From Trypanosoma brucei (Eukaryota): a DNA stretch of 64,000 bases. The notes beneath the pieces were generated by a model. That model did not search any database, had not been told where the DNA came from, and saw only the letters and a list, made by a program, of their open reading frames with translations. Below are positions 903-60,148 of this stretch, in pieces. Every line of letters begins with the position of its first letter. Position 1 is the stretch's first letter. The translations under genes were made by a program, and so were the position numbers. The stretch covers positions 96,001 through 160,000 of the forward strand of contig AE017150.2 of the NCBI GenBank assembly GCA_000002445.1. Reading direction: 5' to 3'.

Positions 903-1150
903 TAGACGAGGTCATGACCACTCCACTGCTGCCGTTACATATGATCACTGCATGGTTTTCGTATCAATGTTGATGATGATATGGGATTTGCTGCTGGAGG
1001 CAACCAACAACATAAGTTTAAGGTTCCCACGTGTGGAGAGAGGCCTAACTGCCAACCCTCAACCAGGATAACAGAAGTGATTATAAGGAAAGAGAAGACA
1101 ACATATCATAGCATGTTTGCACACCGACAAATAATTGAAGAAAGAGAGTA

Positions 1151-1170
1151 AAAGAGAGAGAGAGAGAGAG
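1151..1170. repeat. (GA)n microsatellite (paralogous GA-rich tract at 11771..11802)
   Basis: agagagagagagagagag seen directly. The copy in the second repeat unit is longer and interrupted. Confidence 0.8.
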
Positions 1171-2072
1171 GAAAATGGACACAATCACGTCACCAGCTGC
1201 GTGTCTGCGAAGAACACCATCAAGAGCTGCTCCATAACTGCAACCATAACTAACATGTATAATATAATTATAACAGCTCGTATATGAAACAGCAAATCCA
1301 GTAATTGCTTCTAATGTTTGCATATTTCGCTCCGTCACAATCTCTCTCCCATGACACCTACTGGAAATACAACTCAGAGGAGTTTTAGTTGAGGCATGTT
1401 TCCAATACGCTCTCTCTACCACGGATGGCAAAGAAGCAAAAAGTACTATTACATTTTTGTTCCTTTTATCATTGGCCTATAGATCCCTATCTCTACACTG
1501 ATGGAAAATTTAGATTGTATAAATGAAAAGAAGATGTGAAGAGTTAGCGTAGTATAATTCAATCCTTTAGTTGGTAATAGCACAAATGAAAACAAAACGT
1601 TATAATGTTTTCTTACGTCCGTCGATAACATTATATCTGTCTTTCTTTGTGACCCTTAAGATTACGATGTGGCTTAACTCCAGTTACACGTTAGCCTATA
1701 AAATACTGCACTCCTTCTACTTCCTCCACTACTTTGTCGTCTCGCCACGTTTCCTTGGAACCTTCATTACATTCATACCATGGCGTCCTTGCTGCACCCA
1801 AAAGAAAAAGCAGCCACACCTCCTTGCCCGCTGTGAGGTTACTGAATATACTTCGGACGTCACTGATTATGTGCACCTCTGTGTTACTCTTGTTTTGACT
1901 GCAGTCCGCTGAACTTGGTTTCCTTTCAAACTGCCACACCCCAAGCGCTGCCCACTGCTGAGGAGATTGAACCGCATATATTCACCTCCTTCCACAGCGT
2001 CCGTTGCGTGTCAAACAACAGCGACTGGCCTTACTCCAGCTATTGGGTTCACCTTCGCTTTGCTTTCATCGC

Positions 2073-4586
2073 TCACCTCCCCTGTGCCTTTTCTGCCTTC
2101 TGAAAGGCAATCATCAGCTGTGCATTCATTTCGTCCCTCAACGTTACCTGGAATTGTTCAATCGTTTCCCAAAATGTTTGCAGTTGTTCCGCCTGCCTGG
2201 CAGGGATAACTTCGTCGTCGTTCGCCTCACATTTTTGCCAATTGGTAATTACGGCGCCATCCACTGAGTTTATGTATATCATTTCCCAAGCCATGTTACC
2301 CGAAAACGTGTTCCAGTCGGAAAAATAACTTGCTATGTTTTCTCGGAATTTCTTCACCTTCGCCGTGGTGGTGGGGTGCCTGTCTAACTTGGTTATTTGT
2401 AAAAGGACAATTGTCTTCGGTTTTGGCGCTTTTTTCGCTTGCCTTCCAGGCGACATCGTGAAGCGCCCCTCAACGAAAAAAAAGCCATCCACCACGGGCT
2501 CGTTGGCAGTAGAGGGAGTGTAGAGCACCATGTATTCACACTTCTCAATTGGTTGCTGGCCGGCCGTTGGTAAGAACTCCGATCCAGTGAGGCACAACTG
2601 CTGAGGAGTCATGCTACTCAGTATACTTTGCTTTCCCCTCAGCTTCTCAGGTGGACGGAGGTGTCTCAAGTTCTTTGCCATCACCTCGAGAACTTGAGGA
2701 TTGACTATCGCAAACAACGCATGGCTTTCAAATGAAATGGAAGCGGCACTTCTGTTTCCCATCATGAGCTGGGACTCTGCTGTTTTTCGCGCAGTAATGC
2801 CAAGCAGCGCCCAAAGTAGCAAGATCCTTATGTGTCCGGACAGCTCTTTGCAGCGATATGAATCTCCGGAAACTCCATTTCCACGTGCACGGACTATCTG
2901 TACCAACTTGTGCGACACCTTTTCAGTTTGCCAGTTCACTGATGACCTAAAAAGATCCTCGTAACCACTTTTATCATTAGCATCGAGGCCTCTTATTTTT
3001 TTTGCCATAGCCTCCATTCGCACGCCGTGCCCCACAGCGTCGTAAACGGCACGAGGCACCGGGCCGGCCACTGCAATACGCTGCTTTACAGTTTCCCATT
3101 CGTCCTTTAGTCTTCCTCTTAACTCTTGTTTCGCCGTGTTGGATACCTTTTCACCTAATGCTACTGATAAATTCTTCCATGCCACAAACGCCTTCATGTC
3201 ACGCACATCATCGCAGTTTATAATAATATGGCGGCTTCCCGTGTCCTTTTCCCACTCCTCATAATGTGCCGTATCGGGGGAAGTGAGGACAGTTATACCC
3301 CAATCCAAATGGCGCAGCTCACCAGGCGGTATAAGTAGTTCGTTACCGATGTCAACAATGATGTGACCTCTTTTTTTCTCGAATACTAACGCAGCTATGG
3401 CGTCAACGGCATCTTCCGGGACTTTATACCTCTCAACCCTTCCCTCTTCTCCGGGTTTCTTGTTATATATTAGGTAAGCGATTTTACCCACGAAATACGC
3501 AATGACATTAAACATTCCATCATGGAAGTGAAGCAGTGAATAAAGCAAAAATGATCCAACACCGTATGATTTACCAATACCAGGTGTACCAATAACAATA
3601 TGTCTCGGTGTTATCCGAGCTGTCCTTTCCACCCACCATGTTTGCAGCCCTCGTTGAATTATATACCACACGCGCATAATTTCACGACGGATATACACAT
3701 GTTTATAAATTTCCTCGCACCTCTCAGTGTCACTTGTTTTAAACCTGTTGTATGGCCAACCTTCCTCCGAAGTGAGAACGAAAATCTCCAAACCATCGGG
3801 TCTCTCCTCAATCTCTGCATCAACATTGGTAGGATCAGGAGTTATATCCACCTCCGCTTCGGTCCAAATGCTCTGTGGTCTTCCATCGAACACTTTCATT
3901 CCAAGTGGCTCTCTACGATAACCCGACATTACATAACTCCATTTCGCATTATAAATGGAATCATATAATCCTTTCAGTTCGACAGCACCACCAGCTGCTA
4001 GGACAGCTCGCTTTTCCGCTCTCTTGGCGGCCGCCAACGCTCCATCCAACCTTCCCCTCGCCATGGGACCAACAAATTCTCTTATTTCCACTGTCCCCTT
4101 CTCCTCCCACTGACTGAGGTAGTAAATTTCCTTTTCATCAAGGTACTCTACCTTCTCAGACAGATCAATAGCTGTCTTCACTGTTTTAAACTCATCAGTG
4201 CCTTGTATATCCTCAAGAATCTCAGCATCAACAATATATCTTCTGGGATTCTTAACAAACAAAAACATGGCCACATTCTCTGTGTTATACGTGTTTGAGA
4301 AGTATTGATTCAAAAGGTCATGCAATTTCATATTACGCAGAACCTCATACCGTTGCAGCAGCGCATCTTCCAGCAGCACATTCCTCACCTTACTATCCAT
4401 CGTCCAGTTGGGCCTCTCTTCAGTTCTCTGCCGTATTTGTGGAGGCTGAGCAGCAGCAGCAGCAGCAGCAGCAGGAGGCGGTACATTTTCATCTCGCGGT
4501 CTCCTCATGGGCCCTTCAATATTACCTGCCACTTGTTGGTTTTCATTATTTCCTTGTGGAGCTGCGGGACTATTTGCTCTTGACAT
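2073..4586 (-). CDS. RHS: Retrotransposon hot spot (RHS) protein, apparently full length (837 aa), P-loop NTP-binding motif GTPGIGKS
   Basis: A long ORF shares a conserved N-terminus (MSRANSPAAPQGNNENQQVAG...PPPAAAA..QPPQIRQRTE) and a Walker-A motif VIGTPGIGKSYGVGSFLLYSLLHF with the two other RHS copies in this window. This is the domain organisation of the T. brucei RHS multigene family. No RIME is inserted at the hot-spot codons. Confidence 0.88.
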   Translation of the reverse strand: MSRANSPAAPQGNNENQQVAGNIEGPMRRPRDENVPPPAAAAAAAAQPPQIRQRTEERPNWTMDSKVRNVLLEDALLQRYEVLRNMKLHDLLNQYFSNTYNTENVAMFLFVKNPRRYIVDAEILEDIQGTDEFKTVKTAIDLSEKVEYLDEKEIYYLSQWEEKGTVEIREFVGPMARGRLDGALAAAKRAEKRAVLAAGGAVELKGLYDSIYNAKWSYVMSGYRREPLGMKVFDGRPQSIWTEAEVDITPDPTNVDAEIEERPDGLEIFVLTSEEGWPYNRFKTSDTERCEEIYKHVYIRREIMRVWYIIQRGLQTWWVERTARITPRHIVIGTPGIGKSYGVGSFLLYSLLHFHDGMFNVIAYFVGKIAYLIYNKKPGEEGRVERYKVPEDAVDAIAALVFEKKRGHIIVDIGNELLIPPGELRHLDWGITVLTSPDTAHYEEWEKDTGSRHIIINCDDVRDMKAFVAWKNLSVALGEKVSNTAKQELRGRLKDEWETVKQRIAVAGPVPRAVYDAVGHGVRMEAMAKKIRGLDANDKSGYEDLFRSSVNWQTEKVSHKLVQIVRARGNGVSGDSYRCKELSGHIRILLLWALLGITARKTAESQLMMGNRSAASISFESHALFAIVNPQVLEVMAKNLRHLRPPEKLRGKQSILSSMTPQQLCLTGSEFLPTAGQQPIEKCEYMVLYTPSTANEPVVDGFFFVEGRFTMSPGRQAKKAPKPKTIVLLQITKLDRHPTTTAKVKKFRENIASYFSDWNTFSGNMAWEMIYINSVDGAVITNWQKCEANDDEVIPARQAEQLQTFWETIEQFQVTLRDEMNAQLMIAFQKAEKAQGR
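4451..4474. repeat. (CAG)8 / (GCT)8 trinucleotide repeat encoding the poly-Ala tract of the RHS N-terminus
   Basis: Seen directly. The paralogous tracts are (CAG)5 at 15144..15158 and (CAG)5 at ~48646..48660. Confidence 0.85.
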
Positions 4587-11533: not shown

Positions 11534-12731
11534 TAGACGAGGCCATGGTCACTCCACTGCTGCCGTTACATATGATCACTGCATGATTTTCGTATCAATG
11601 TTGATGATGATGTGGGATTTGCTGCTGGAGGCAACCAACAACACAAGTTTAAGGTTCCCACGTGTGGAGAGAGGCCCAACTGCCAACCCTCAACCAGGAT
11701 AACAGAAGTGATTATAAGGAAAGAGAAGACAACATATCATAGCATGTTTGCACACCGACAAATAATTGAAGAAAGAAAGAGAGGGAGAGAGAGAGAGAGA
11801 GGAAAATGGACACAATCACGTCACCAGCTGCGTGTCTGCGAAGAACACCATCAAGAGCTACTCCATAACTCTAATCATAACTAACATGTATAATATAATT
11901 ATAACAGCTCGTATATAAAACAGCACATCCAGTAACTGCTTCTAATGTTTGCATATTTCACTCCGTCACAATCTCTCTCCCATGACACCTACTGGAAATA
12001 CAACTCAGAGGGGCTATATTTGAGGCATGTTTCCAATACGCTCTCTCCACCACGGATGGCAAAGAAGCAAAAAGTACTATTACATTTTTGTTCCTTTTAT
12101 CATTGGCCTATAGATCCCTATCTCTACACGGATGGAAAATTTAGACTGTATAAATGAAAAGAAGATGTGAAGAGTTAGTGTAGTATAATCCAATCCTATA
12201 GTTTGTAATAGCACAAATGAAAACAAAACGTCACAATGTTTTCTTACGTCCGTCGATAACATTATTTCTGTCTTTCTCTGTGCCCCTTAAGATTACGATG
12301 TGGCTTAACTCCAGTTACGCGGTAGCCGATAAAATACTACTTTTACTATTCCTTAGTCGTCTTCATTTCCACTTCCCTTCCCTCACCTCCGGCACTCAAG
12401 TGAATTACCACGTCCCTTTCCTGCACTAACCGCCGCATTCGACTGCTTGTTGAAAAGAATAAGATGATTACTACAGCCGCTATTTGCTGAATATTACTCC
12501 CTTGCAGCGCATCTTGTCATCCTAAGCATTAAGACAAAGCCACTTACCCTGTTTTGGCAGTTAGGACTGCTGGCCTCCCTATGATACGATAACTCAATTT
12601 TACATTAAATGAAAAAACGCCGACTAGCCCCACATTAGCACCGTACACTGTTGACTGCTTGCGTTCACCATAACATACCAGGCCGGATATTTTTACCCAG
12701 CTTCCACCACACCTAATGCTATGAAATCGTC

Positions 12732-15269
12732 TCACCCTCCTTGCGCTCCCGCTTGCTCGTTGCGTGGCTGCGGCGCAGGCTCCATGGCCAGAAGTGGAGC
12801 ATCCCGATACCAACATTCATCTCTATATGCTCGCATTAGCTGCCCCTGCATTTCTTCCCTTAACGTTACTTGGTATTGAGCCATGTTTCTCCACATATCT
12901 GCCGCTTCGGCGGGGTCGTCGCCATCACAAAGTTGCCTGATGGTTATCGTGCCACCGTTAACCGAATTAATGTATATCATCTCCCAAACCATGTCGCGGG
13001 AAAACGCACCCCAATCAGAAAAATATCTTGCCATGTTTTCTCGGAACTTCTGCACCTTATCCGTAGTGGTGGGGTGCCTGTCCGACTTGGTTACTTGTAA
13101 AAGCACAGCTATATTTGGAGTGGTCGGTGGCGCTGCTCCGTCAGGGGCTCTCCTGAGCCGCCCCTCAACGAAAAAAAAGCCATCCACCACGGGTTCATTG
13201 CCTGTGGCAGGGCGGTAGAGAACCATGTATTCACAATTATCAATTGGTCGCTGGTGGGCCGCAGGTAAGGCCTTCTGCCCAGTGAGTTTCAACTGCTGAG
13301 GAGCCATGTCGTTCAGTATGCTTCGACGGTCAGCTATTTCTCCGCCTCGTCGCAGGTATTTCAAGTTGTCTGCGATAACTTTAAAAACTCGAGGAAAAAG
13401 AAGCGAAAGCAACGCCCTTGATTCAAACACGTTGGCTGCGGCACTCTCGTCTGACATCGTAACTTGACGGATAGCCATTTTCTCCACATCAATGGCAAGC
13501 AGTTTGAAAAATATAGCATTCCCAATGCAAACCGAAAGTGGCCGGCAGCGGTATTCATCGACGCTCTCTCCGGCATCTCGCACACGGACGATTTTCACTA
13601 ACCTGTGCGTTACCTTATCATTTCGCCAATCGGCAATTTTCCCCATTATGTCCTCGTAGTGACTTTTGTTGTCACCATTGATGGACGTTATCATCTTTTT
13701 TGCCTGAGACACACGTTTTGTGTACCCCGCGCTGTTGTAAACGCAACGAGGCACTGGCCCAACCACATTAATACGGCTCTTTATTGTTTCCCACTCATTT
13801 TTAAGTTCTTCTACAATCCTCGCCTGAGCTTCTTCATCAAGTGCCGCATAGCCTGATGCTACAGACAGCTTAGTCCATGCCACAAATGCCTTCATGTCAC
13901 GCACATCATCACAGTTTATAATAATTCCTACGTCTCTCTTGTCTTTTGACCAGTGATGAAAATGGGCCTCATCCGGAGAAGTGAGGAGAGTTACACCCCA
14001 AGCGTGAACCGGCAGACCATCGGGTGGCGTCTGCGCATTCTTGCATATGTCAACAATGATGTGCCCTTTTTTTTTCTTGAATACTAACGCAGCTATGACC
14101 CTAACAGCAGCTTTCACGTCTTCATATTGCTCAACCTTCCCCCCTTCTCCGGGTTTCTTGTTATATATTAAATAGGCTATTTTACCCACGAAATATGCAA
14201 CAACATCAAGCATTCCATCATTGAAGTGAAGCAATGAATGAAGCAAAAATGATCCAACACCATATGATTTACCAATACCAGGTGTACCAATAACAATATG
14301 TCTCGGTGTTATCTCAGCTTTTTCCACCCACCTTCCTTGCAGCCCTCGTTGGATTATATACCACACGCGCATAATTTCACGACGGATATATACATGCTTA
14401 AAATTTTCCAAGCATATCTCAGCGTCATCCAATGCAAACCCGTTGTATGGCCAACCCTTCTCCGAAGTGAGAACAAAAATCTCCAAACCATCAGGCCTCT
14501 CCTCAATCTCTGCATCAACATTCGCAGGGTCAGGAGTTATATCCACCTCCGCTTCGGTCCATATGCACTGTGGTTTTCCATCAAACACTTTCATGCCAAG
14601 TGGCTCTTCATTATAACCCGACATTACATAACTCCATTTCGCATTATATATGGATTCATACACTCCTTCAAGTTCGACAGCACCACCAGCTGTTTGGGCA
14701 GCTCGCTTTTCCGCTCTCTTGGCGACCTCCAGTGCTCCATCCAACCTTCCCCTCGCCATGGGACCAACAAATTCTCTTATTTCCCCTCTTCCCTTCTCCT
14801 CCCACTGACTGAGGTAGTAAATTTCTTTTTCGTCAAGGTACCTTGCTTTCCGCTTCATTTCAGAGAATTGGTTATATAATTCTTTATATTCCTCAAACTG
14901 ATAAAGCCGCCGTATCCTTCCTAGAATCCCGGCATCCAAAATATAATCCTCCGGGCTCTGGACAAACACATCCATGGCCACATTCTCTGTGTCATACGTG
15001 TTAAAAAACTTTTTCAGCAAAAAGTCATGCAGTGTCATATCCCTCAAACCCTCATAGCGTTGCAGCAATACATCTTCAATAGAACTGTTCATTGTCCAAT
15101 TGGGCCCCTCTTCAGTTCTCTGCCGTATTTGTGGAGGCTGAGCAGCAGCAGCAGCAGGAGGCGGTACATTTTCATCCCGTGGCCTCCTCATGGCTGCTTC
15201 AATATTATCTGCCACTTGTTGATTTTCATTATTTCCTTGTGGAGCTGCGGGACTATTTGCTCTTGACAT
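12732..15269 (-). CDS. RHS: Retrotransposon hot spot (RHS) protein, apparently full length (845 aa), P-loop GTPGIGKS
   Basis: Long ORF collinear with RHS #1, with identical N- and C-terminal blocks and a mosaic-divergent central region. There is no RIME at the hot spot. Confidence 0.88.
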   Translation of the reverse strand: MSRANSPAAPQGNNENQQVADNIEAAMRRPRDENVPPPAAAAAQPPQIRQRTEEGPNWTMNSSIEDVLLQRYEGLRDMTLHDFLLKKFFNTYDTENVAMDVFVQSPEDYILDAGILGRIRRLYQFEEYKELYNQFSEMKRKARYLDEKEIYYLSQWEEKGRGEIREFVGPMARGRLDGALEVAKRAEKRAAQTAGGAVELEGVYESIYNAKWSYVMSGYNEEPLGMKVFDGKPQCIWTEAEVDITPDPANVDAEIEERPDGLEIFVLTSEKGWPYNGFALDDAEICLENFKHVYIRREIMRVWYIIQRGLQGRWVEKAEITPRHIVIGTPGIGKSYGVGSFLLHSLLHFNDGMLDVVAYFVGKIAYLIYNKKPGEGGKVEQYEDVKAAVRVIAALVFKKKKGHIIVDICKNAQTPPDGLPVHAWGVTLLTSPDEAHFHHWSKDKRDVGIIINCDDVRDMKAFVAWTKLSVASGYAALDEEAQARIVEELKNEWETIKSRINVVGPVPRCVYNSAGYTKRVSQAKKMITSINGDNKSHYEDIMGKIADWRNDKVTHRLVKIVRVRDAGESVDEYRCRPLSVCIGNAIFFKLLAIDVEKMAIRQVTMSDESAAANVFESRALLSLLFPRVFKVIADNLKYLRRGGEIADRRSILNDMAPQQLKLTGQKALPAAHQRPIDNCEYMVLYRPATGNEPVVDGFFFVEGRLRRAPDGAAPPTTPNIAVLLQVTKSDRHPTTTDKVQKFRENMARYFSDWGAFSRDMVWEMIYINSVNGGTITIRQLCDGDDPAEAADMWRNMAQYQVTLREEMQGQLMRAYRDECWYRDAPLLAMEPAPQPRNEQAGAQGG

Positions 15270-24200: not shown

Positions 24201-24244
24201 ACAAGATAACTTTCTTGATGAATTTCATTCATGATCGCACGCGT

Positions 24245-26599: not shown

Positions 26600-26679
<80 letters not shown>

Positions 26680-43500: not shown

Positions 43501-46166
43501 AGTTGTACTGCGATGCTTCACTTTACCATATGTGTAACATCGTGTCTCGTTGGTTTGTAAAAATTCAAAAAGAACACATCAGGTGATATTCTTCTGTTCT
43601 TACTTCGTACATTCACATCTCTTCCCGTCAGTTCGGAAACTCCCACTCAAACTCACCACTCTGTGAAGATTTGTAATTTCCGTTATGGATGGACGTACTC
43701 AAGTGGACATGTTTGGCACTTCAAAACTAAGTTTTTTAAACTTACACCTTCCTTCTTTCATAGAGCTTCAGTGCGAGAGTAAAAGAATAGTTGAGTATTA
43801 TGAGAAAACATAAGCCCAAATATTCTCGATGCAAGTTTTCAATAAAAGCAAACGCATTGAGATGGTTTAGTGAACACATGCAGTATAATCCCTAGCAAAG
43901 GTATTATTCACACCCAATAAACAACTCAAACAAATAACACCAGCATACATATCGCAGACACATAAGTTGCACCTTCACAAACAAATGATGACTGCTGTGA
44001 CTCATCATGTGTAAAATATTATGAGAACAAAAACATAAATGTCCTTGATCTTCCATAAATGTATAGCACAATATTATTTTGCATTATCATCGGAAAAATA
44101 TTTTTTTTATATTGATATATATATTCAGCTAAAAGTCAAGAGTGAGCTCTGGCCTTGTAGAACTGTAAATGCGTGCATGTTCTGTTATTATTGTTTCCCA
44201 TTGTAAAATGAAGATACGTGCAGGTGTGGAGAAACGACTCCATTAATGCTTATGATGCACCAAATAATTCTCTCGTAAAGAAAGGAGAGAACAAATGCTC
44301 AGTACATGCGTCCCTATTTGTATCTTTAAATTAAGGTTCTCTTGAGTGGAGTAAAAGAAGAAAAGGCAAGAAGTATATGATGTGAGTGATAATACATAAT
44401 GAAATGACCCAACAAGAGGGAAAGGAAGTTACATGCCTTCACTACAGTCATACAAATAAAGCCAGACCCTTTACACTCGTTTCACAGTGTTCTGTCGCAT
44501 CGCTCTGTATAAACAAATTACTAATAGGAAATGGAAATGTAAGAAGAGAGTAAAAAAGTATCAAGTAGCTTGAGGATTATCGACACTCAGCTACGTGGAA
44601 TGATACGCATCGCAAATTTGTGTTTGAAATGATCACCATCCTAATGAACTTACTCGTATGTTACTTAATCCTGGGAAATACTTCTCTGTGCGCTCAAGTT
44701 ACCTGACAACTTTCCTTCCACACCCTATGCATTGTTACCACCTCCATTGTTAACTCCGTTGTTCCTGTCATATTCCTCAAGTTTTTCTTTGCATTCGACG
44801 TATAGTGCAATAATGCGCTCATTAAGTGAGACGGAAAATTGACGCACTTCCCTTTTCCAAAATCTTTCCTCACGTTTGCTTTGTTCATCCGTGGCTGTCC
44901 TGCTACAACACTGTGGCTTTGTAATTCTTTCGTCGTCAACCCTTTGAACATATATTATTTCCCATACCATATCATTAGAAAAATTGTCCCAGCGTCTAAA
45001 GTAACTTTGCAAACACCTTTTCATCTTAAATAACCCACCGGTGCTGCAGGGATGACTACCAGAAATTGTGTACTGCAGTCCCACAAAAGTCTTCGGGTTC
45101 TCAACAAAAAAGAACGCATCAACAACTGGGAAACTCCTTGATTGCGGCTTGTACAATTTCATGTATTCAATTTCAGCTCCAGCTACAATTGGAACATCCT
45201 CAGGAACCTCAATCGAAGGACCAATGAGTCTTGGTTCTTGCAGCACCTGCAGCACACTTCGTGGAATTTGATCCTCAGAAAGTGAGAGGCCCTGTAACTC
45301 CCTTGCCAACTCAATTAGTGCATCCTCATGTGACAATGCTTCAATGCCACTGTTCTCAAACATGTAGGCAGCGAGGGCGCGGTTAGACAACATGCCAGAA
45401 ATTAAAGCATATTTTTTTGTCCGCCAAGGTCTCAGAAAGTCTAAAATAGCTTGTCCCGTGTAAGATGAAAGCGGTCTGCAGCGATACGCATCACAAAGGG
45501 GGTCACCATCAACCACACGGACAGCCCTCACTAACTTGTGTGATACCTCATCTGTTTGCCACATACCTGCGTTTTGGAAAATTTTAGCGTAATCATTCAT
45601 ATCATCATCTCTCATTTTGCCAATGACCTCTCGAATTAGTTCCCGCTGCCTTTTATACCAAAATGAATCAACGATATGACGAAGCAGTGGACCAACGATA
45701 CGAATGCGGGCTTGAATTTCTTGCCATTCTCTTTCAATTTTCTCCTTCGCATCTGAAGGACTCCAACCGTAAGCAAGAGCAATTTTCCCCCACCTCGATA
45801 TGTGTATGGCTTCCAAATCCTTCAATGTGTCACAGTTTATGTAAATATGTGTAGCGCCGTTTTGCTTGGACCATTCATGGAATTGTCTAACGTTTGGAGA
45901 ACTCAAAGCAATACCGGAAAAATCACCAGGTGGTTTCACTGGAGCATGATGGTCCTTGTCCACGTCGAATATAAGGTATCCCTTAATATCCTCACCGCCA
46001 CTCGATTCTCCGATTATTTGCTTAACAGCTGTGAATGCACTCTTATAATTACTGTAAAACGTAACATATCCTGCTCGATCGCCTTTGGGTTTACGAAACA
46101 CGTACGCCTCGCCCTCCACAACGTATATGATAATCTGAAGCTGACTCGCTTCATAATGCAGTAGTT

Positions 46167-46178
46167 TGTATAACAGTA
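46167..46178. repeat. 12-bp target-site duplication TGTATAACAGTA (minus strand TACTGTTATACA), copy 1 of 4
   Basis: The identical 12-mer occurs at 46167..46178, 46683..46694, 47203..47214 and 47717..47728, immediately flanking each RIME. Confidence 0.85.
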
Positions 46179-46682
46179 TTTTTTTTTTTTTAGAATTTTC
46201 TTCGTGCCTTCGTGAGAGTTTCTCCCAACTGGCGCGGCCATCAGCCATCACCGTAGAGCCCCGAGATGCTATCGGTCTGGCGACTGTGGCAGAGTCTCCC
46301 TTTTTCATTCATCCTAACACACTCTCTATAATTTTTGTTGTATTTCCGCATATGAACGGAATACAGCAGATGGGGCGAGAACCCTCCCACCCTGGACTCT
46401 CCCAAAGATGCCAATTTGCAATCCTTTTTTGGAGGTCCACATCACCGGACAGCAGCATCTTAGCGCGGATGATACTGCTGATGGCACGCTGGCACGTGCC
46501 CAGGGACCGACAAATGAAAAACGGTGTCCCAGCAAGACGCTGCTGATCCCTGTGCTGTATGATGCCGTAGCCGGAGCACAGCAGTGTTCCCCATGAAAGG
46601 AACGCTGCTGGCTCTTGGCTTCCCCCGATGATACGGGGTACTGGACCCTGGCACAACATTGAGGTGGCCGGCATCGCCAGGG
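46179..46682 (-). mobile_element. RIME (non-autonomous ingi-related retroposon), copy a, with a 13-nt poly(A) tail
   Basis: The minus strand reads CCCTGGCGATGCCGGCCACCTCAATGTTGTGCCAGGGTCCAGTACCCCGTATCATCGGGGGAAGCCAAGAGCCAG... ending in poly(A). This matches the canonical RIME/ingi 5' end, the length is ~504 bp, and the copy is flanked by the 12-bp direct repeat. Confidence 0.85.
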
Positions 46683-46694
46683 TGTATAACAGTA
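46683..46694. repeat. 12-bp TSD, copy 2 of 4
   Basis: As above. Confidence 0.85.
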
Positions 46695-47202
46695 TTTTTT
46701 TTTTTTTAGAATTTTCTTCGTGCCTTCGTGAGAGTTTCCCCCCACTGGCGCGGCCATCAGCCATCACCGTAGAGCCCTGAGATGCTATCGGTCTGGCGAC
46801 TGTGGCAGAGTCTCCCTTTTTCATTCATCCTAACACACCCTCTATAATTTTTGTTGTATTTCCGCATATGAACGGAATACAGCAGATGGGGCGAGAAGCC
46901 TCCCACCCTGGACTCTCCAAAAGATGCCAATTGGCAATCCTTTTTTTTTCGGAGGTCCACATCACCGGACAGCAGCATCTTAGTGCGGATGATACTGCTG
47001 ATGGCACGCTGGCACGTGCCCAGGGACCGACAAATGAAAAACGGTGTCCCAGCAAGACGCTGCTGATCCCTGTGCTGTATGATGCCGTAGCCGGAGCACA
47101 GCAGTGTTCCCCATGAAAGGAACGCTGCTGGCTCTTGGCTTCCCCCGATGATACGGGGTACTGGACCCTGGCACCACGTTGAGGTGGCCGGCATCGCCAG
47201 GG
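46695..47202 (-). mobile_element. RIME copy b, 13-nt poly(A)
   Basis: Near-identical to copy a; same 5' end and poly(A); flanked by the 12-bp direct repeat. Confidence 0.85.
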
Positions 47203-47214
47203 TGTATAACAGTA
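47203..47214. repeat. 12-bp TSD, copy 3 of 4
   Basis: As above. Confidence 0.85.
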
Positions 47215-47716
47215 TTTTTTTTTTTAGAATTTTCTTCGTGCCTTCGTGAGAGTTTCTCCCAACTGGCGCGGCCATCAGCCATCACCGTAGAGCCCTGAGA
47301 TGCTATCGGTCTGGCGACTGTGGCAGAGTCTCCCTTTTTCACTCATCCTAACACACTCTCTATAATTTTTGTTGTATTTCCGCATATGAACGGAATACAG
47401 CAGATGGGGCGAGAACCCTCCCACCCTGGACTCTCCCAAAGATGCCAATTTGCAATCCTTTTTTGGAGGTCCACATCACCGGACAGCAGCATCTTAGCGC
47501 GGATGATACTGCTGATGGCACGCTGGCACGTGCCCAGGGACCGACAAATGAAAAACGGTGTCCCAGCAAGACGCTGCTGATCCCTGTGCTGTATGATGCC
47601 GTAGCCGGAGCACAGCAGTGTTCCCCATGAAAGGAACTCTGCTGGCTCTTGGCTTCCCCCGATGATACGGGGTACTGGACCCTGGCACCACGTTGAGGTG
47701 GCCGGCATCGCCAGGG
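47215..47716 (-). mobile_element. RIME copy c, 11-nt poly(A)
   Basis: Near-identical to copies a and b. It abuts RHS N-part codons ...LLLY through the 12-bp repeat. Confidence 0.85.
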
Positions 47717-47728
47717 TGTATAACAGTA
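47717..47728. repeat. 12-bp TSD, copy 4 of 4
   Basis: As above. Confidence 0.85.
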
Positions 47729-48773
47729 GGGATCCCACGGAAAACGATTTACCAATACCGGGTGTACCAATAAGAACATGAAACATCGGGTTGACAGTCA
47801 CTTCACCCATAAGCCACTGGTTAAGCCGTTCCTCAACCTTATGCCACACCCTCAGTGTTTCCCTACGGATATAAACATCACTATTAAAAACGTACCCCAC
47901 TCCTCTCTTATGATTAATATCATAATCTTTTGGGTTCGCTTTACACGACGTGTATGGCCAACCCATTTGAGATGTAAGCACAGCAATCTCCAAGTTACCG
48001 TCACGGGGAAGTGGTTTATACATTGTTTCCGGAACGTGACTGACATCAACTTCCTCCTTCGTCCACATGCGCGGCGGTCTTCCATCAAACACTTTCATTC
48101 CGAGTGGCTCTTCCCTGTGACCCGACTCCACATAACCCCACGTCGCATTGTATATGGATTCATATACTCCTCTCAGTTCGACAGCACCACCAGCTGTTTG
48201 GGTGGCTCGTTCCCTTGCTTCTTTGGCGGCCGCCAACGCTCCATCCAACATTCCCCTCGCCACGGGACCAACAAATTCCCTTATTTCCCCTCTTCCCTTC
48301 TCCTCCCACTGCCGGAGGTAGTAAATTTCCTTCTCAGACAGATACCTTGCTTTCCGCTTCATTTCAGAGAATTGGTCATATAATTCTTTATATTCCTCAA
48401 ACTCATCTGTGCCTTGTATATCCTCAAGAATCTCAGCATCAACAATATATCTTCTGGGATTCTTAACAAACACATCCATGGCTACATTCCGTGTGTCATA
48501 CGTGTTTAAAAACTTTTTCAGCAAAAAGTCATGCAGCGTCATATTACGCAAACCCGCATAATCTTCCAGCAGCACATTCCTCACCTTACTGTTCATTGTC
48601 CAATAGGGTCCCCCTTCAGTTCTCTGCCGTATTTGTGGAGGCTGAGCAGCAGCAGCAGCAGGAGGCGGTACATTTTCATCCCGTGGCCTCCTCACGGCTG
48701 CTCCAAAATTACCTGCTACTTGTTGGTTTGCATTATTTCTTCGTCGACCTCCACCTCTTCGACGTCTTGACAT

Positions 48774-51730
48774 AACTCTCTTAATATTATTAACTTAACT
48801 TCCCTTCCTTTTCTTTTTTCTCTGAAATTATAAATAACTGAAGTAAAATAATAGATGAGGAAAAAAAATAGCGGATGAACAGTGTAACATAATATCAAAT
48901 GTAATAGAGCAATATAATGTTTACTCACTATCATTTGTATGATATCATAATGCATTTGGTATTGAGAGGAACAATTTCAAAATATAGCAGCTGTAAATAA
49001 ATTATTTCCCTTGCTTCATTATCATACGCTAAATATAATGAACTTCATACATCATTTCTTTTTAAACCATGAATAATATGGAAACAAAAAATATTACTGC
49101 CTCATACACCTGCATCAACACTTCGTATATATAATCAATATTTAAAGAGAGTCAAATTCTATCAATTAAAATCAAGTAAAACAATAAACAAAAATATATA
49201 TGGATATTAATGAAGCGAAGAAAAAGAGTATCGGCACAACACATAGATATACACACACATGAATACGCACTACACAACTGCTTCTTTATATATCCTCCCC
49301 ATTTTTACAATTCATAATATTCACTTGCATTGAATAAACTCATTGAAATATAAATCACTTATCCCGTCCCCCGTGTAATCACTTACTTCCAAAGGAGAAT
49401 ATTAAATAATGTCTGTAGGACAGGTAAAAAAAAACTGATAGTCTTTTTGCATCAGATAACCAGAGAGTATTTCCTGTTTACTTTGATTATAAGCAAAAAC
49501 ATCATTTTGCCTTCAGTAGAAATAAAATTGAATTACTTGCCTCCTCATTGCTCACAACTATCAACAACTAATTCATCCCCACACATTCACGTGTATCTGA
49601 TGTGCCATCGTTGTTTGATTCATTCACACATCTTCCATGATAGCGATGATACAACATATTGTAAATAATTGGAATAAAATTAATACAATTAATTGAGGAA
49701 ACCGTAAAAGATTATCATAACATATCTTTTATTTTCCCTCCTTTCATTTACACAAATTAAATATGTAATGAGACAATTCCCTTTCAGTACGTGTCCACAC
49801 TTATTGTATCATCATTGTAAGTTATTTTTTGCTCACATACACAAAGCTATTGGAATAACAAAAAAATAAAACAACACATTTAAACAACTTAAAAATATAT
49901 AACAAATAAAGGTAATAAAGAGAATGAGAGTGAACTGACAGATAATAAAATGAAACACGTCTCGCATTTTCCTTATAAATATTCAATAGTTGGCGGATTA
50001 CAAATAAAAACAATTACACATTATAGAAAGGAAGGGATATAATTACATTATACACCTGCATGTGGATATGTAACAGCGAGTCATAGTAGAAATAAATTGC
50101 CTAAACACAATAGTTATGGAAGATAACATAATTCAAAATATCAATAATATTATTCTATCAACATTCCCTTCCTTCTCCATTAAGTTTTCAATGGTTTCAA
50201 ATAATAATTCACATAATCTCATACATATGTTACGATGGGTATTGCATGCAGTACAATTTAAAGGAAGTGCAACTCATATAACATTTTCAAAAAAAAGGTA
50301 TTGAATGACTGTTTGCTACCATCAATTACATTTCCAATGCCTGATTACACTTTTATATGCATGAAGGAAGTTACTGATCATAACTTTGACATGCTCGAGA
50401 ATCCATAACACAAAGCAGCAGCTGCATGCAATAAAAAATATAAATATAAATAACATCCGAATTCATTTACTGACAGATGAGTGCAATCCATTCATCCAAA
50501 CTTCATAGCTGCAAACATAAACTCGTTGTTGCCAATAGAAAATAATCGCGCATAAATATTGAGTATCTGAAAATGATAGCAACGGGTTTCCATTTTCGAA
50601 ATATATACATAAACTACATGAGGTATATGAAGCCATATTGGTAAAGTGTCACTACGCATGTTGCAATTTACTATCAAAAGTGTCTGCCTTATTTTATTTC
50701 TTGTGTTACTGTAACTCATGAGTATCATTCATTATTCTTTACAATACAACTGTAAGTCATTTTGCATTTTTACATATTTCCTTATTCTCTCATACTGGAA
50801 GTATTCCACATATGAGATTCCTCAATATCGTTCACAAAATAAAAATAATTTTATTTACTTCTGCATTCAGTTTCTCGTGTAGCAGTGTGTACACTAATCA
50901 TCCATAAAGTTTTTAATTTGCCAAATACATCATTACGAAACTATTTTCCACACATACACATACACAAACAAACCGTTGGGACAATATCTTTGAGGTATTT
51001 CCTTCACTATATTTGCAGTTTAGCAGTGATTAAAATACACTTTTTGTATAATTCAACACATGGTGGAATTGCAAAGAAATGTGATGGTACTTATAATCCA
51101 TAAGTTCCCAATTTTCCTCACATGATCTCTTTTCATGCCTTTATATCCTTATATAATTCACAGAGAATTACTGCAATTTCTTTCATATGCTTTCAGGATT
51201 CCATAAGTCACAATACAAATAATATATATTTACAAATTTGCACATAATATTGCTTAACATATAAATTATCACAAACCTATGATATTACACTCCTCCTAAG
51301 AATAATAGAATCAAATCATTTCTATTTTGCATCATTACATGAAGCTTTGGAAAAGGAAAAAAAAGAATCAAACAAAAGGTAATGTAAACAACACAGTTTC
51401 ATAATACAGATTATAACTTGTTTGTGAATTTCAGATGCAAACACAAAATGTTCAAACAGGGAAACAGTAAAGGATGTTACTGGTGATGTAAGCACAAATT
51501 AACCAAAAATAGAAACATAAATAAAATTGAAACTTATAAAAACACAAATATATATGACACAAATATTTACCACATATTATAATTCGCCACCCTCACACTT
51601 GAATTACAAAGAGTACATAACACACATATGTGGTAAAACTAATACAACTCGAATATACATATGTGCCATCTTCTTAACATAATCATTCCAATATTTACTC
51701 AGTATGTATGTCTGTGTGTGTGTAGAAATG
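48774..51730. repeat. Conserved AT-rich RHS upstream region, copy 3
   Basis: Aligns with 4587..7556 and 15270..18250. Like copy 2 (and unlike copy 1) it continues into ...cgacaatcgcttgactcggaatgcgg. Confidence 0.8.
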
Positions 51731-54700
51731 ATGAAATGTAATCGACAATCGCTTGACTCGGAATGCGGTATTAACATGTCTCAGATGTTAAGCGTTCTTG
51801 TTCTACAAGGGAAGTCATTCGCCTTTTTTTCCTTTTTGCGCAAACAAAAAATAAAAAGAAGAATTCAAGGGTTGTAGCGGATAACTAGCTTTTTGAATCG
51901 TAGCAATATATTATGAAGCATGTACCACAGTCTACTCAGTATTTTTTTTTATTTTTTGATTTCATTAACTTTCATACATGTTTATAAATGATACTTTTTG
52001 TGAAATTTATAACAAGAAACTAACTCGTATTTTCAGTCACTAGCTTCACAGTTCTGAATTTTCGCAATGATGCCGCCGCAAAATATCATTCTTGCTTCTT
52101 ATTTTATTGAAGAGTTACTCTCGCAGAAGAAAGCAGGATGAAAATACTCAAGACCACACCGACAGGGGCCAGACATTCCTCAAAAAAGAACGAACAAAGA
52201 AGTTAACCACACAACCCTTCTTACAAATGAGCGTCTGTCAATGTGCAAGAAAAAACAAAGGCTTCGACTGCATGCAACACTAGAAACGATATCAGCGGCT
52301 TCAATCCCACAGTTAAAGCCACTTGACGAAACACTCAGCATACGAAACCTTTGCAAAGCAATGTATTGGTTATTTAAAGAAAAAGAAAAAAATGTATTCC
52401 TTCACGTGCCGTTTCAACAAACTGCTAGCCGAGAACTAAGAGTATCAACACACACGCACGTGATATCCACGCGTCGAATATTTGCTGCCCAGCTGACTCC
52501 AAACTCACAAAGAGGAAACAACACGTAACCACTTACAGCCCAGCTGCTAGTGTCCTTTAAGTGCATACAAATACACAACAGCAATCATTGTCACCCCACT
52601 AATTTTAGGCATCATTTAATGCACATTTAACAAACGTGATGCCCGACTCCAAATGTGAAAGGCACTCGTCACGCACCCGCCCCGCCCGCCTCCCCACAAA
52701 TTCCACAGGATGGTGGAGGCAAGGCAGCAAAGGAGCGACGCGGCGCTGTTAAAATAGAGCAGCTGCGCATCAGTTGCATTGAGTTTGTGGAATGCGGAGA
52801 AACCACCAGTTGAGCTTCGAGAGTGAGGGATGCTCCCACAGAGTCGTGGCGGCAGAAGGTGATGAAGACGTCACGGATCTTTTTTTTTCTTTTGCTGCAA
52901 CCTCCCGAAATGCGTTGAAACGCCAAGCACCACCGCCACCCCCAGAGCAAAAACGTTGGGGAGAAAAAGCGGAACAATGTGTGGGTTGTGGCGCTGAAAC
53001 CGCAATTACCAACTGGCAAGGTGGATGGACCGCGACATGTGAGCGAGCAAGGGGAGACATCGCTGTTTGTGGAATGTAGGGAGATGTAAGAAAAGAGACC
53101 ACTAAATATGATAACGATGTTAGAGCAACGAATATGAACGGCGTACAATTCCGTTTAGAAACACTGTCTGGAATTTCTGTCTGTAAAAACAACAACTGGC
53201 AGCACCGACGAATTCGTAACAGAAGGTTGCGGGATGCCAGCCAAAAAAAAAAAACCATCAATAGGCCACAACCACACCGAATCAGAAAGTCCACATAAAA
53301 GTAACCAAATACACGCAGCTCAAACGCTCAAATGTTGGATACGCGGCAGGTGACACGACGGAAGGAATATTATCCAGCGCTTGGAAGCATGTCACCACCG
53401 CAACGACTCCTCAGAAACTGGACAGCTTCAAGTGTGGAGTGGCGGCTTGCACATGAACGTAGTGAGTGTCAGAAAGGAGGGGGGAAAGGCATAGCGGAAG
53501 GAACGGCGAAGCAAAAAAGGCAGGGAGGCTGTGCCAAGACTCCCGAGCAGACATCTGCTAAAACCTACGGCACATGACATGTATGGTATGGCCATTGCAG
53601 CGCAGGAGGAACTGTTACAACGAATCGGACATGACTGTTATGGGCCCGTCACTGCCTTCAGAGACTTTTCCAAACGAAAGGAAAGAGCGCAATGCGACAG
53701 AGTGATGCTGACGTGTGCAGAAGTCTCGAAGCATTGTGTCAGCGAGGTCTGTGGTGACTAAGAGTCAGAGATGGGCACATGGTTAGAAGGGTGGTGGATC
53801 CTGCGACGAGTTGAAATTAGGGTGCCTGTACTTTATTTCTCATATACTCGCGTGCTCCGTATACAAAATATAAATGAGAAATGGATCTCACAAACACGCC
53901 AGCAAAGTGGATCTGTTCCTTTGCAATGTCCAGACAATTCGCACTAAGACTCTTAAAGCTATTGGACCGAAGGAACCTCACGACCGTGTGCAGCTGTCAA
54001 ACGTGCGAAAATGGAGAGCTGGCCGGCATCTCACCCTCCACTTGGCAGCTGCTCTCAACTGGAATATCGGGGATTATGGATGGTGTGTAAAGCTCACCAT
54101 TTTGTGGATTCTTCTGAATAGCAATGGAGTCTGAAGGTTAACCCAAAGAGTTAAAACGTTGAACAGAGCTGGTGACCTACGTGGTCTTTTTTTTGTGTAA
54201 AAAGTGCCCGACTGCCTTACTGCATCCCTTCGCGTGCATGCAAACTGAGCACAACGCAATGTCTCCTTTATTATTTGAAGCATGAAAGCTCATGGATTAT
54301 AGCCATGGGACAGAAGGCCTTGATTACGTTAGACTGATAGGACCGCTGTGTATTTTTCGTTGTCTATGTTGGGATGGCCATTTGATAGTAGCATCTGCTA
54401 GTGTACAATTATTTTGATGGATTCGGCACATTACAGTGATTTCTGTTGGGAGTTCCTCTTCCCCCTCACTCTGAGTAGATGTGGGGTAACTGGTTTCTTT
54501 TCTGACGCTAACATGGTTTGCCAGCTCTGTTTGGGAATGTTACGGTATCATCACGCACAGTTTCGCAATTTGTCCGTAAAGCTGCTTTGAATCCATGCTG
54601 CGGTTGTCACGAATCAGAAAAATTATAACGGAGATGGGTCTGCAAAAAGGCATTGTGAGTTAGCGACAATACTACGTATCAAACAATGTCACATCATGAC

Positions 54701-57700: not shown

Positions 57701-57760
57701 CATCCATCATTGCTAAACAAGATAACTTTCTTGATGAATTTCATTCATGATCGCACGCGT

Positions 57761-60114: not shown

Positions 60115-60148
<34 letters not shown>

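What the first reader, a model, noticed from the sequence alone, without database searches (positions are those of the whole stretch)
12732..15269. Patchwork (mosaic) similarity among the three RHS N-terminal regions suggests gene conversion
In the segment after the poly-Ala tract, RHS #3 reads WTMNSKVRNVLLED..LRNMTLHDFLLKKFLNTYDTRNVAMDVFVKNPRRYIVDAEILEDIQGTDEFEEYKELYDQFSEMKRKARYL. Blocks NSKVRNVLLED and KNPRRYIVDAEILEDIQGTDEF match RHS #1 (2073..4586). Blocks LRNMTLHDFLLKKF and EEYKELY.QFSEMKRKARYL match RHS #2 (12732..15269). Alternating donor blocks of this kind are a signature of segmental gene conversion among paralogues.
Basis: seen in the sequence. Interest (0 to 1): 0.5.

Follow-up and report, generated by a model that had tools for sequence, protein, structure and literature searches.

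The report
Shuffled cassettes in trypanosome RHS genes
The three genes are Trypanosoma brucei "retrotransposon hot spot" (RHS) genes whose N-terminal coding regions are real patchworks of short, helix-sized sequence cassettes exchanged among family members by recombination, which is an expected behaviour of this subtelomeric gene family rather than a new phenomenon.

Summary
RHS#3 (5' half 47717-48773, minus strand) matches RHS#1 in blocks A and C and RHS#2 in blocks B and D, at protein and nucleotide level, including synonymous sites and indels. Uniform divergence is rejected: site-pattern homogeneity across blocks p=3e-32, Fisher C vs D 5e-16, runs test p<5e-5, PHI 0.41 vs 0.59±0.007, GENECONV-like runs p≤5e-4.

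The window is T. b. brucei TREU927 chromosome 2. RHS#2 is XP_951486.1 (RHS4). RHS#1 is XP_951485.1. RHS#3 is an RHS1 pseudogene split by three tandem RIME retroposons.

The blocks lie in and just after Pfam DUF7578 and correspond roughly to single predicted helices. Across 17 T. brucei-group RHS N-termini each block has 2-4 discrete types, in 11 combinations. All four gametes occur for B×C, B×D and C×D, independently of C-terminal subfamily.

So recombination, most simply short-tract interparalogue gene conversion, is well supported. RHS#1 and RHS#2 are not shown to be the donors. Each junction in RHS#3 exists in other loci, and each of the three copies carries its own odd patch. Chimeric T. 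brucei RHS genes and mosaic T. cruzi RHS genes are already published. Interest is low to moderate.

The parts
2073..4586 (-). RHS#1, an intact RHS gene of 837 aa (= XP_951485.1). Its C-terminal region resembles a protein annotated RHS4 (P0035). Cassette combination b1-c1-d1.
   Evidence: ORF. Sequence identical to P0030 by inspection; accession. Pfam DUF7578 + RHS_N + RHSP. The RHS4 resemblance is by eye.
4140..4397 (-). RHS#1 cassette region: A 4329-4397, B 4254-4328, C 4188-4253, D 4140-4187.
   Evidence: Coordinates; block identities.
12732..15269 (-). RHS#2, an intact RHS4 gene of 845 aa (= XP_951486.1). Cassette combination b2-c2-d2.
   Evidence: 100% match to P0029. Its 90% cluster contains CAD21774.1, named 'RHS4'. 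Pfam domains.
14835..15089 (-). RHS#2 cassette region: A 15036-15089, B 14961-15035, C 14895-14960, D 14835-14894.
47717..48773 (-). RHS#3 5' half (RHS1 pseudogene), from the start codon to the retroposon insertion site just after the P-loop codons (GTPGIGKS at 47745-47768).
   Evidence: Pfam RHSP match stops at profile position 22.
48540..48593 (-). RHS#3 block A (aa 61-78). It is of the RHS#1, P0036 and Tbg chr 11 type; RHS#2 is the odd one here.
   Evidence: Alignment here includes a 15-nt indel and is less certain.
48465..48539 (-). RHS#3 block B (aa 79-103), type b2, 92% identical to RHS#2.
48399..48464 (-). RHS#3 block C (aa 104-125), type c1, 98.5% identical to RHS#1 and 56% to RHS#2.
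48339..48398 (-). RHS#3 block D (aa 126-145), type d2, 95% identical to RHS#2 with a shared 12-nt indel, and 42% to RHS#1.
46167..47728 (-). Three tandem RIME retroposons (about 500 bp each, poly(A) tails) separated and flanked by four copies of the 12-bp target duplication TACTGTTATACA (47717-47728, 47203-47214, 46683-46694, 46167-46178).
   Evidence: Each element starts CCCTGGCGATGCCGGCCACC. About 250 bp match sequence lying next to an RNase-H-domain (retroelement-type) gene in L001.
44725..46178 (-). RHS#3 3' half, with an RHS1-type C-terminal region, 97% aa identical to RHS1 Q8T9M3 (P0037).
   Evidence: Pfam RHSP profile positions 18-311.
48774..51742 (-). Upstream part of the shared 5' repeat unit of RHS#3. 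It is homologous to 4587-7555 (RHS#1) and 15270-18235 (RHS#2). All pairs are about 94.5-95% identical, with smaller clustered patches.

Best explanation
The three genes belong to the Trypanosoma brucei RHS (retrotransposon hot spot) multigene family, on chromosome 2 of strain TREU927.

Their first ~700 coding bases and ~3 kb upstream form a shared repeat unit that is about 95% identical between copies. Inside it, in and just after the small helical DUF7578 domain (aa ~60-150), lie short segments of 50-75 nt. These are cassettes A, B, C and D, plus smaller ones at codons 4-12 and in block E.

Each cassette exists in 2-4 sharply different sequence types, 40-60% identical to one another and some differing by indels. 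The types are assorted almost independently among paralogues, C-terminal subfamilies, chromosomes and subspecies.

The most likely cause is repeated short-tract ectopic (interparalogue) homologous recombination, most simply non-reciprocal gene conversion. Exchanges resolve in the short conserved stretches between cassettes (..GTGTTTGT.., ..GATGAGTTT.., ..TAYCT..).

RHS#3 has the combination b2-c1-d2. It looks like an alternation of RHS#1 and RHS#2 only because those two comparators happen to be b1-c1-d1 and b2-c2-d2.

Shown: the mosaic, its statistical significance, family-wide shuffling, and patch geometry.
Inferred: gene conversion as the enzymatic route, resolution at the conserved junctions, and the number and order of events.
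For: Identity of the genes:
- 100% match of RHS#2 to the TREU927 protein on the 1,193,948-bp contig; accessions.
- Pfam DUF7578, RHS_N and RHSP in all three.
- RIME insertions with 12-bp duplications right after the P-loop codons in RHS#3.

Mosaic: per-block nearest neighbours change.
- N, E, F: RHS#3 groups with Tbg chr 11 (95-99%).
- B: RHS#3 with RHS#2 and P0047 (87-92%); Tbg chr 11 with Teq P0003 (97.6%).
- C: RHS#1, RHS#3, P0003 and P0047 together (89-98.5%); RHS#2 with Tbg chr 11 (86%).
- D: RHS#2 with RHS#3 (95%); RHS#1, P0003 and P0047 together (90-94%); Tbg chr 11 with P0008 (96%).

Tests:
- Runs p<5e-5.
- Chi-square 181, p=2.6e-32, and Fisher 5e-16.
- PHI 0.41 vs 0.59±0.007.
- Longest identical runs p≤5e-4 for nine of ten pairs.
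- Hudson-Kaplan Rm ≥12 with four sequences. Intervals at nt 321-379 (372-379 with five or seven sequences), 434-447 and 464-501 match the B|C, C|D and D|E borders.

Family-wide shuffling:
- 11 B-C-D combinations in 17 sequences.
- Four gametes for b2/b3 × c1/c2 and for b2/b3 × d1/d2. With P0136 (b3-c2-d1) also for c1/c2 × d1/d2.
- Seven RHS1 genes carry seven different combinations.

Patch geometry: RHS#3 vs L001; RHS#2 vs P0136.

Common descent rather than convergence: synonymous codons follow the cassette type.

Background: 94.4-94.9% identity upstream vs 64-80% in A-D.

Literature: segmental and interlocus gene conversion and mosaic RHS genes are reported for T. cruzi, and recombination-derived RHS pseudogenes for T. 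brucei (PMC7563717). Subtelomeric position 'would aid recombination' (PMC6393297).
Against: - No donor-recipient pair can be named. The 98.5% identity of block C between RHS#1 and RHS#3 is not significantly above the 95% upstream background (1 difference where ~3.4 are expected, binomial P≈0.14, my own arithmetic). A recent RHS#1 to RHS#3 transfer is therefore not shown.
- Non-reciprocity cannot be seen in a single genome, so double crossovers would give the same pattern.
- Only 7 nucleotide sequences and 17 protein N-termini out of the 118 annotated TREU927 RHS genes (count from PMC6393297) were available. Nucleotide sequence of TREU927 outside the window could not be fetched.
- Breakpoints are not strictly at block borders. 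C-block hybrids occur in P0005, P0001, P0037 and P0136.
- Rm overestimates events at this divergence, because the infinite-sites assumption fails.
Confidence: 0.85

Rival explanations
1. Literal reading of the first stage. RHS#3 was built recently within this locus by successive conversion events that used RHS#1 (blocks A and C) and RHS#2 (blocks B and D) themselves as donors.
For: Among available nucleotide sequences, RHS#1 is the closest to RHS#3 in block C (98.5%) and RHS#2 the closest in blocks B (92%) and D (95%). All three lie within 47 kb on one chromosome and share a 95% identical 5' unit.
Against: - The same cassette types and the same junctions occur in other loci, chromosomes and subspecies.
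- Against P0036, a TREU927 chr 2 RHS1 with A and B like RHS#3, a c2-like C block and d2, RHS#3 differs within A-D essentially only in block C. One patch would therefore suffice.
- Block identities do not exceed the 95% background.
- Direction cannot be polarised with three sequences.
Confidence: 0.12
2. No recombination. The blocks are locally fast-evolving or positively selected segments that diverged independently in single lineages, so the patchwork is rate heterogeneity plus chance or convergence.
For: The cassette region is far more divergent (64-80%) than its flanks, and most differences are non-synonymous.
Against: - Rate heterogeneity changes the density of differences, not which pair groups together. 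The grouping switches completely between adjacent blocks (28:0 vs 0:26; Fisher 5e-16).
- Synonymous sites and indels co-segregate with cassette type.
- Identical multi-residue cassettes recur in all four-gamete combinations.
- PHI is significant.
Confidence: 0.02
3. Reciprocal unequal crossing-over or repeated single crossovers between tandem RHS units, rather than non-reciprocal conversion, generated the combinations. On this view the shuffling is a by-product of array expansion and contraction.
For: The window shows large tandem or segmental duplications whose edges lie inside RHS genes (14552 and 48057). RHS#3's 5' and 3' halves have different closest relatives across the RIME array. The cited literature proposes crossover-derived RHS pseudogenes (PMC7563717).
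Against: Patches of 55-200 nt with the same backbone on both sides need two closely spaced exchanges each. Rm ≥12 within ~800 nt is easier to reach by short conversion tracts than by crossovers, each of which would also rearrange flanking genes.
Confidence: 0.1
4. Assembly or annotation artefact. Collapsed or mis-joined reads in a repetitive region created chimeric N-termini.
For: The RHS arrays are highly repetitive.
Against: Block switches occur every 55-75 nt, far below read length. The same junctions are seen in independent genomes (T. b. gambiense DAL972, T. equiperdum) and in independently sequenced RHS entries (Q8T9M3, Q8T9M2, CAD21774.1).
Confidence: 0.01

Closest known systems
Trypanosoma brucei RHS (retrotransposon hot spot) multigene family (Bringaud et al. 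2002, recalled from memory and as summarised in PMC7563717; Florini et al. 2019, PMC6393297)
   Same: These are members of it. They show the same domain set, the same P-loop-adjacent RIME/ingi insertion site with a 12-bp duplication, a conserved N-terminal part with subfamily-specific C-terminal parts, chimeric pseudogenes and subtelomere-like clusters.
   Different: The papers I could read describe the N-terminal region as 'highly conserved' and classify the family by C-termini. They do not describe the helix-sized discrete cassette types in DUF7578 or their near-independent assortment. Bringaud 2002 itself could not be read, so prior description cannot be excluded.
Mosaic structure and segmental/interlocus gene conversion in the T. 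cruzi RHS family (Bernardo et al. 2020, PMC7563717)
   Same: Same protein family and the same inference (recombination tests, mosaic genes, pseudogenes as sequence reservoirs).
   Different: A different species. The pattern here is resolved to specific 55-75-nt cassettes in one domain, and it is shown between genes of different C-terminal subfamilies.
Segmental gene conversion forming mosaic VSG genes in T. brucei (Marcello & Barry 2007; Hall et al. 2013, as cited in PMC7563717)
   Same: Short-tract, homology-guided assembly of mosaics from a silent paralogue archive that includes pseudogenes, in the same organism and the same genomic compartment.
   Different: VSG mosaics are selected by host immunity and are assembled in an expression site. 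RHS proteins are nuclear factors (PMC6393297), and no selective driver or dedicated site is known for RHS mosaics.
Bacterial Rhs (rearrangement hot spot) / YD-repeat toxins
   Same: Only the acronym and an association with recombination.
   Different: No YD repeats and no Rhs core. The organism is eukaryotic and the domains are different.

Membership tests
Trypanosome RHS (retrotransposon hot spot) protein family | RHSP P-loop domain (Pfam PF07999) with a GxxxxGKS motif | tested here: met
   E=2.8e-70 (RHS#2) and 2.3e-65 (RHS#1). In RHS#3 the match is split: 5' half covers profile positions 1-22, 3' half covers 18-311 with E=1.5e-104. GTPGIGKS is present.
Trypanosome RHS (retrotransposon hot spot) protein family | RHS_N (PF20445) and DUF7578 (PF24466) N-terminal domains | tested here: met
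   All three genes: RHS_N E=1e-32 to 1e-55; DUF7578 E=5e-16 to 5e-18.
Trypanosome RHS (retrotransposon hot spot) protein family | RIME/ingi insertion at the fixed site just downstream of the P-loop codons, with a 12-bp target duplication (in pseudogene members) | tested here: met
   RHS#3 has three tandem RIMEs and four copies of TACTGTTATACA. The T. b. gambiense relative has one RIME at the same site.
Trypanosome RHS (retrotransposon hot spot) protein family | Close homology to annotated T. brucei RHS proteins | tested here: met
   RHS#2 is 100% identical to XP_951486.1. RHS#1 is identical in sequence to XP_951485.1. The RHS#3 3' half is 97% identical to RHS1 Q8T9M3.
Trypanosome RHS (retrotransposon hot spot) protein family | Nuclear localisation and a role in Pol II transcription or mRNA export | not testable with these tools
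   Known from PMC6393297 for RHS2, RHS4 and RHS6. Not addressed here.
Interparalogue (ectopic) gene conversion | Adjacent segments support incompatible genealogies beyond what rate variation gives | tested here: met
   Chi-square p=2.6e-32 and Fisher 5e-16; PHI p<2e-4; runs test; GENECONV-like test.
Interparalogue (ectopic) gene conversion | A short internal tract is replaced while both flanks keep the recipient backbone | tested here: met
   RHS#3 vs Tbg chr 11 pseudogene: a ~205-nt patch. RHS#2 vs XP_951497.1: 47.8% in aa 61-150 vs 99.5% in aa 401-600.
Interparalogue (ectopic) gene conversion | Non-reciprocal transfer (donor unchanged) | not testable with these tools
   Needs before-and-after genomes or tetrad-like data.
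Interparalogue (ectopic) gene conversion | An identifiable donor whose tract is more similar to the recipient than the background | tested here: inconclusive
   The best candidates are RHS#1 for block C (98.5%) and RHS#2 for block D (95%). These values do not exceed the 95% upstream background.
Bacterial Rhs / YD-repeat proteins | YD/RHS repeats and an Rhs core domain | tested here: not met
   The Pfam scan of all three proteins returned only RHSP, RHS_N and DUF7578.

The most novel reading that the evidence does not exclude
The DUF7578 region of T. brucei RHS proteins may be a selected combinatorial diversity module. On this reading, helix-sized cassettes with conserved junctions are shuffled among more than 100 genes and pseudogenes, much as mosaic VSGs are assembled. 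This would generate many variants of a protein-interaction surface on nuclear transcription and export factors. The process might be fuelled by DNA breaks made by the ingi/RIME endonuclease at the hot spot ~0.8 kb downstream. RHS pseudogenes would then be kept as a cassette archive rather than being junk.
Probability: 0.1. Interest if true: 0.6.

Novelty: new member of a known kind. Interest (0 to 1): 0.25.

Why it matters
It shows that the 'conserved' N-terminal part of T. brucei RHS proteins is in fact a set of discrete interchangeable cassettes. Trees or subfamily assignments built on it are therefore unreliable. Reagents aimed at this region, such as antibodies, RNAi fragments or mapped reads, will cross subfamily lines unpredictably.

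It also adds a well-resolved example of short-tract ectopic recombination in trypanosome repeat regions. This is the process that underlies antigenic variation, so RHS arrays could serve as a neutral read-out of tract length and homology requirements.

It does not change the current understanding of the family.

Tried and rejected
- The single-recombinant 3SEQ-like walk is weak here. For RHS#3 as child, p=0.028 in the CDS and a trivial p=1.0 over the whole alignment because parent counts are unbalanced. Several breakpoints cancel in the walk, so I relied on runs, chi-square, PHI and GENECONV-like tests.
- Fetching TREU927 DNA for other RHS copies failed. P0002, P0004, P0005, P0036, P0037, P0044, P0045 and P0136 could therefore be typed only as proteins.
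- Bringaud et al. 2002 is not held. A search for a chromosome II paper gave nothing useful.
- A 2026 bioRxiv pangenome preprint mentions RHS arrays as recombination substrates but has no cassette-level analysis.
- I considered calling block C a recent RHS#1 to RHS#3 transfer and rejected it. One difference in 66 nt is not significantly fewer than the 95% background predicts.
- I considered reconstructing an event history. It might be one block-C patch on a P0036-like background, or a B-C patch on a P0037-like background. Blocks E and F and codons 4-12 are themselves shuffled, so no unique history exists with this sample.
- A protein comparison of the RHS#3 3' half with the T. b. gambiense 3' half failed on reading frame. 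The 84% nucleotide figure is used instead.
- A fold search of the model was not run, because it would not bear on the recombination question.
Full report
**What the window is**

ORF density is low, and there are three long minus-strand ORFs with near-identical starts. The RHS#2 protein is 100% identical to a Trypanosoma brucei brucei TREU927 'retrotransposon hot spot (RHS) protein' on a 1,193,948-bp contig. That protein is XP_951486.1, and its 90% cluster contains CAD21774.1, named RHS4. RHS#1 is identical in sequence to XP_951485.1 on the same contig.

All three carry Pfam DUF7578 (about aa 75-140), RHS_N and the RHSP P-loop domain. This is the trypanosome RHS family, not bacterial Rhs.

RHS#3 is a pseudogene.
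- Its reading frame leaves RHS sequence right after the P-loop codons.
- There, three tandem ~500-bp RIME retroposons sit between four copies of the 12-bp duplication TACTGTTATACA.
- The RHS frame resumes at 46178 and runs to 44725.
- That 3' half is 97% identical to RHS1 Q8T9M3.

**Checking the observation**

The quoted peptide is RHS#3 residues 58-145. The coordinates given in the finding are those of RHS#2.

| Block | RHS#3 vs RHS#1 | RHS#3 vs RHS#2 | Note |
|---|---|---|---|
| C | 98.5% | 56% | |
| D | 42% | 95% | 12-nt indel shared with RHS#2 |
| B | 75% | 92% | |
| A | follows RHS#1 | | across a 15-nt indel region, where alignment is less secure |

At residues conserved between cassette types, the synonymous codon choices of RHS#3 follow RHS#1 throughout block C and follow RHS#2 at two sites in block B. 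The switch falls between the last two codons of block B.

**Is it more than chance or uneven rates?**

- Of 116 informative sites in the N-terminal CDS, the RHS#1-like and RHS#2-like sites form only 23 runs (permutation p<5e-5).
- A test that is insensitive to rate heterogeneity asks whether the proportions of the three site patterns are the same in every block. It gives chi-square 181, 12 d.f., p=2.6e-32.
- Blocks C and D give 28:0 against 0:26 (Fisher 5e-16).
- Four further nucleotide sequences were fetched: two from T. b. gambiense DAL972 and two from T. equiperdum. With them, the PHI statistic is 0.41 against a permuted 0.59±0.007 (p<2e-4). It is also significant with 4 or 5 sequences.
- A GENECONV-like test of longest identical runs is significant for every pair.
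- Hudson-Kaplan Rm is at least 12 for four sequences. Intervals at nt 321-379 (372-379 with more sequences), 434-447 and 464-501 coincide with the B|C, C|D and D|E borders.

**What the pattern really is**

The three copies share a 5' repeat unit of about 3 kb upstream plus the first ~700 coding bases. In the upstream part all pairs are 94.4-94.9% identical. In blocks A-D identity drops to 64-80%. Downstream of about aa 230, RHS#3 (RHS1-type) diverges from RHS#1 and RHS#2 to ~53%. The cassette region is therefore an island of discrete, deeply divergent alternatives inside a homogenised unit.

| Block | Type | Carried by |
|---|---|---|
| B | b1 | RHS#1, P0045, P0005 |
| B | b2 | RHS#2, RHS#3, P0036, P0047, P0004, P0137 |
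| B | b3 | P0001, P0002, P0003, P0037, P0044, P0136 |
| B | a fourth set | P0008, P0051 (P0006 has divergent blocks and is not counted) |
| C | c1 | RHS#1, RHS#3, P0002, P0003, P0004, P0044, P0045, P0047 (P0005 carries a c1-derived hybrid) |
| C | c2 | RHS#2, P0001, P0036, P0037, P0051, P0136, P0137 |
| D | d1 | RHS#1, P0003, P0004, P0044, P0045, P0047, P0136 |
| D | d2 | RHS#2, RHS#3, P0002, P0036, P0037, P0137 |
| D | d3 | P0001, P0005, P0008, P0051 |

- Eleven B-C-D combinations occur.
- All four gametes exist for b2/b3 × c1/c2, b2/b3 × d1/d2 and c1/c2 × d1/d2.
- Seven RHS1 genes carry seven different combinations.
- RHS#1 and the RHS1 protein P0045 have identical B and C blocks and differ at one residue in each of A and D, although they belong to different C-terminal subfamilies.
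- The second N-terminal type of the family (MNQQVPIEG...) shows the same two-by-two variation at homologous positions.
- Full-length comparisons show further mosaicism along the genes.

**Patch geometry**

RHS#3 and the T. b. gambiense chr 11 RHS1 pseudogene (L001) are 95-100% identical in blocks N, A, E and F and in the RIME. Across B-D they are only 48-58% identical, a ~205-nt replaced patch.

RHS#2 and XP_951497.1, an RHS4 gene on the same chromosome, are 99.5% identical over aa 401-600 but 47.8% over aa 61-150.

Internal tracts with both flanks retained are what gene conversion produces. Closely spaced double crossovers would look the same.

**Why the donor story is not established**

- RHS#3's junctions pre-exist elsewhere: b2|c1 in P0047 and P0004, c1|d2 in P0002.
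- Against P0036, RHS#3 differs within A-D essentially only in block C, so one patch could suffice. Against P0037, a B-C patch would suffice.
- With only RHS#1-3, one can equally say that RHS#2 holds odd patches in A and C, RHS#1 in B and D, and RHS#3 in codons 4-12.
- Block C identity between RHS#1 and RHS#3 is one difference in 66 nt. That is not significantly better than the 95% background (P≈0.14, my arithmetic).
- Breakpoints are not strictly modular, because hybrid C blocks occur.

**Structure**

An AlphaFold2 model of RHS#2 built with 44 family sequences has mean pLDDT 77, and 73-87 in this region.

| Cassette | Residues | Predicted element |
|---|---|---|
| A | 61-78 | helix 64-76 |
| B | 79-103 | helices 80-88 and 99-104 |
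| C | 104-125 | helix 113-120 |
| D | 126-145 | within the long helix 123-147 |

Residues 1-54 are predicted disordered. The conserved junction residues (VFV, DEF, YL) lie at or near cassette borders. My inference is that their conservation for folding also supplies the microhomology in which exchanges resolve.

**Comparison with what is known**

- T. brucei RHS genes are classified by C-terminal region and have a 'highly conserved' N-terminal region. Pseudogenes are thought to arise partly by recombination 5' of the retroelement site (PMC7563717, summarising Bringaud 2002).
- TREU927 has 118 annotated RHS genes, 78 of them pseudogenes, and their subtelomeric position 'would aid recombination' (PMC6393297).
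- Mosaic structure and segmental or interlocus gene conversion were formally reported for T. cruzi RHS (PMC7563717).

The present case is a further, finely resolved instance of a known kind. I could not read Bringaud 2002, so I cannot exclude that the cassettes were already noted there.

**Verdict**

Recombination, most simply short-tract interparalogue gene conversion, is strongly supported (confidence 0.85). The specific 'RHS#1 and RHS#2 as alternating donors' reading is unproven and unlikely (about 0.12). Novelty is low and interest is 0.25.

Noticed in passing
window 46167-47728: Three RIME retroposons lie in direct tandem inside RHS#3. Each is bounded by the same 12-bp duplication TACTGTTATACA, as if the regenerated target had been hit repeatedly or the unit had been amplified by unequal exchange. 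The T. b. gambiense relative has one copy.
   Followed up: partly
window 44725-46178 vs 47717-48773; L001:10001-13357: The two halves of RHS#3 have different closest relatives. The 5' half is 97% identical (nt) to the T. b. gambiense chr 11 pseudogene, while the 3' half is only 84% identical to that gene's 3' half. The 3' half is instead 97% (aa) identical to RHS1 Q8T9M3. This suggests a chimera formed across the retroposon array.
   Followed up: partly
window 14552-30525 and 48057-64000: A segmental duplication of about 16 kb, 93-96% identical. One edge lies inside the RHS coding region (about aa 235), where the subfamily-specific sequence begins. A second repeat pairs 1-7518 with 10636-18235.
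   Followed up: partly
window 29379-32711 (+); second copy starts near 62800: An intact 1110-aa leucine-rich-repeat protein. From memory it resembles the ESAG8/LRRP type; only the LRR Pfam hits were tested.
   Followed up: no
window 24134-25998 (+) and 57832-58823 (+): Fragmented ORFs that match the periplasmic-binding-like domains of receptor-type adenylate cyclases. They look like GRESAG4-type pseudogenes and are present in both copies of the duplication.
   Followed up: no
window 10538-11352 (-); also L001:3350-4092: Short ORFs matching RNA polymerase Rpb2 domains 4 and 6 lie between RHS#1 and RHS#2. They look like an RPB2 pseudogene fragment, and the fragment is conserved at the related T. 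b. gambiense locus.
   Followed up: no
window ~26600 and ~60150: A dinucleotide (CA/TG) microsatellite reads as poly-(His-Thr) in a spurious ORF. It is longer in the first copy of the duplication than in the second.
   Followed up: no
window 48735-48764 (RHS#3 codons 4-13) vs 4548-4577 and 15231-15260: A further discrete cassette lies at the extreme N-terminus and runs ~40 nt into the 5' UTR. It reads MSRRRRGGGRRR in RHS#3, in the T. b. gambiense pseudogene and, in variant form, in P0045. It reads MSRANSPAAPQG in RHS#1 and RHS#2.
   Followed up: partly
P0136 (XP_951497.1, TREU927 chr 2, outside the window): A near-twin of RHS#2 (99.5% identical over aa 401-600) with a completely different N-terminal cassette set (b3-c2-d1). 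This is the cleanest natural example of cassette replacement in the family.
   Followed up: yes
P0031-P0034, P0007, P0079 (aa 60-140): RHS proteins with the other N-terminal type (MNQQVPIEG...) show the same kind of two-state cassettes at positions homologous to blocks B and D. Three of the four combinations were seen.
   Followed up: partly
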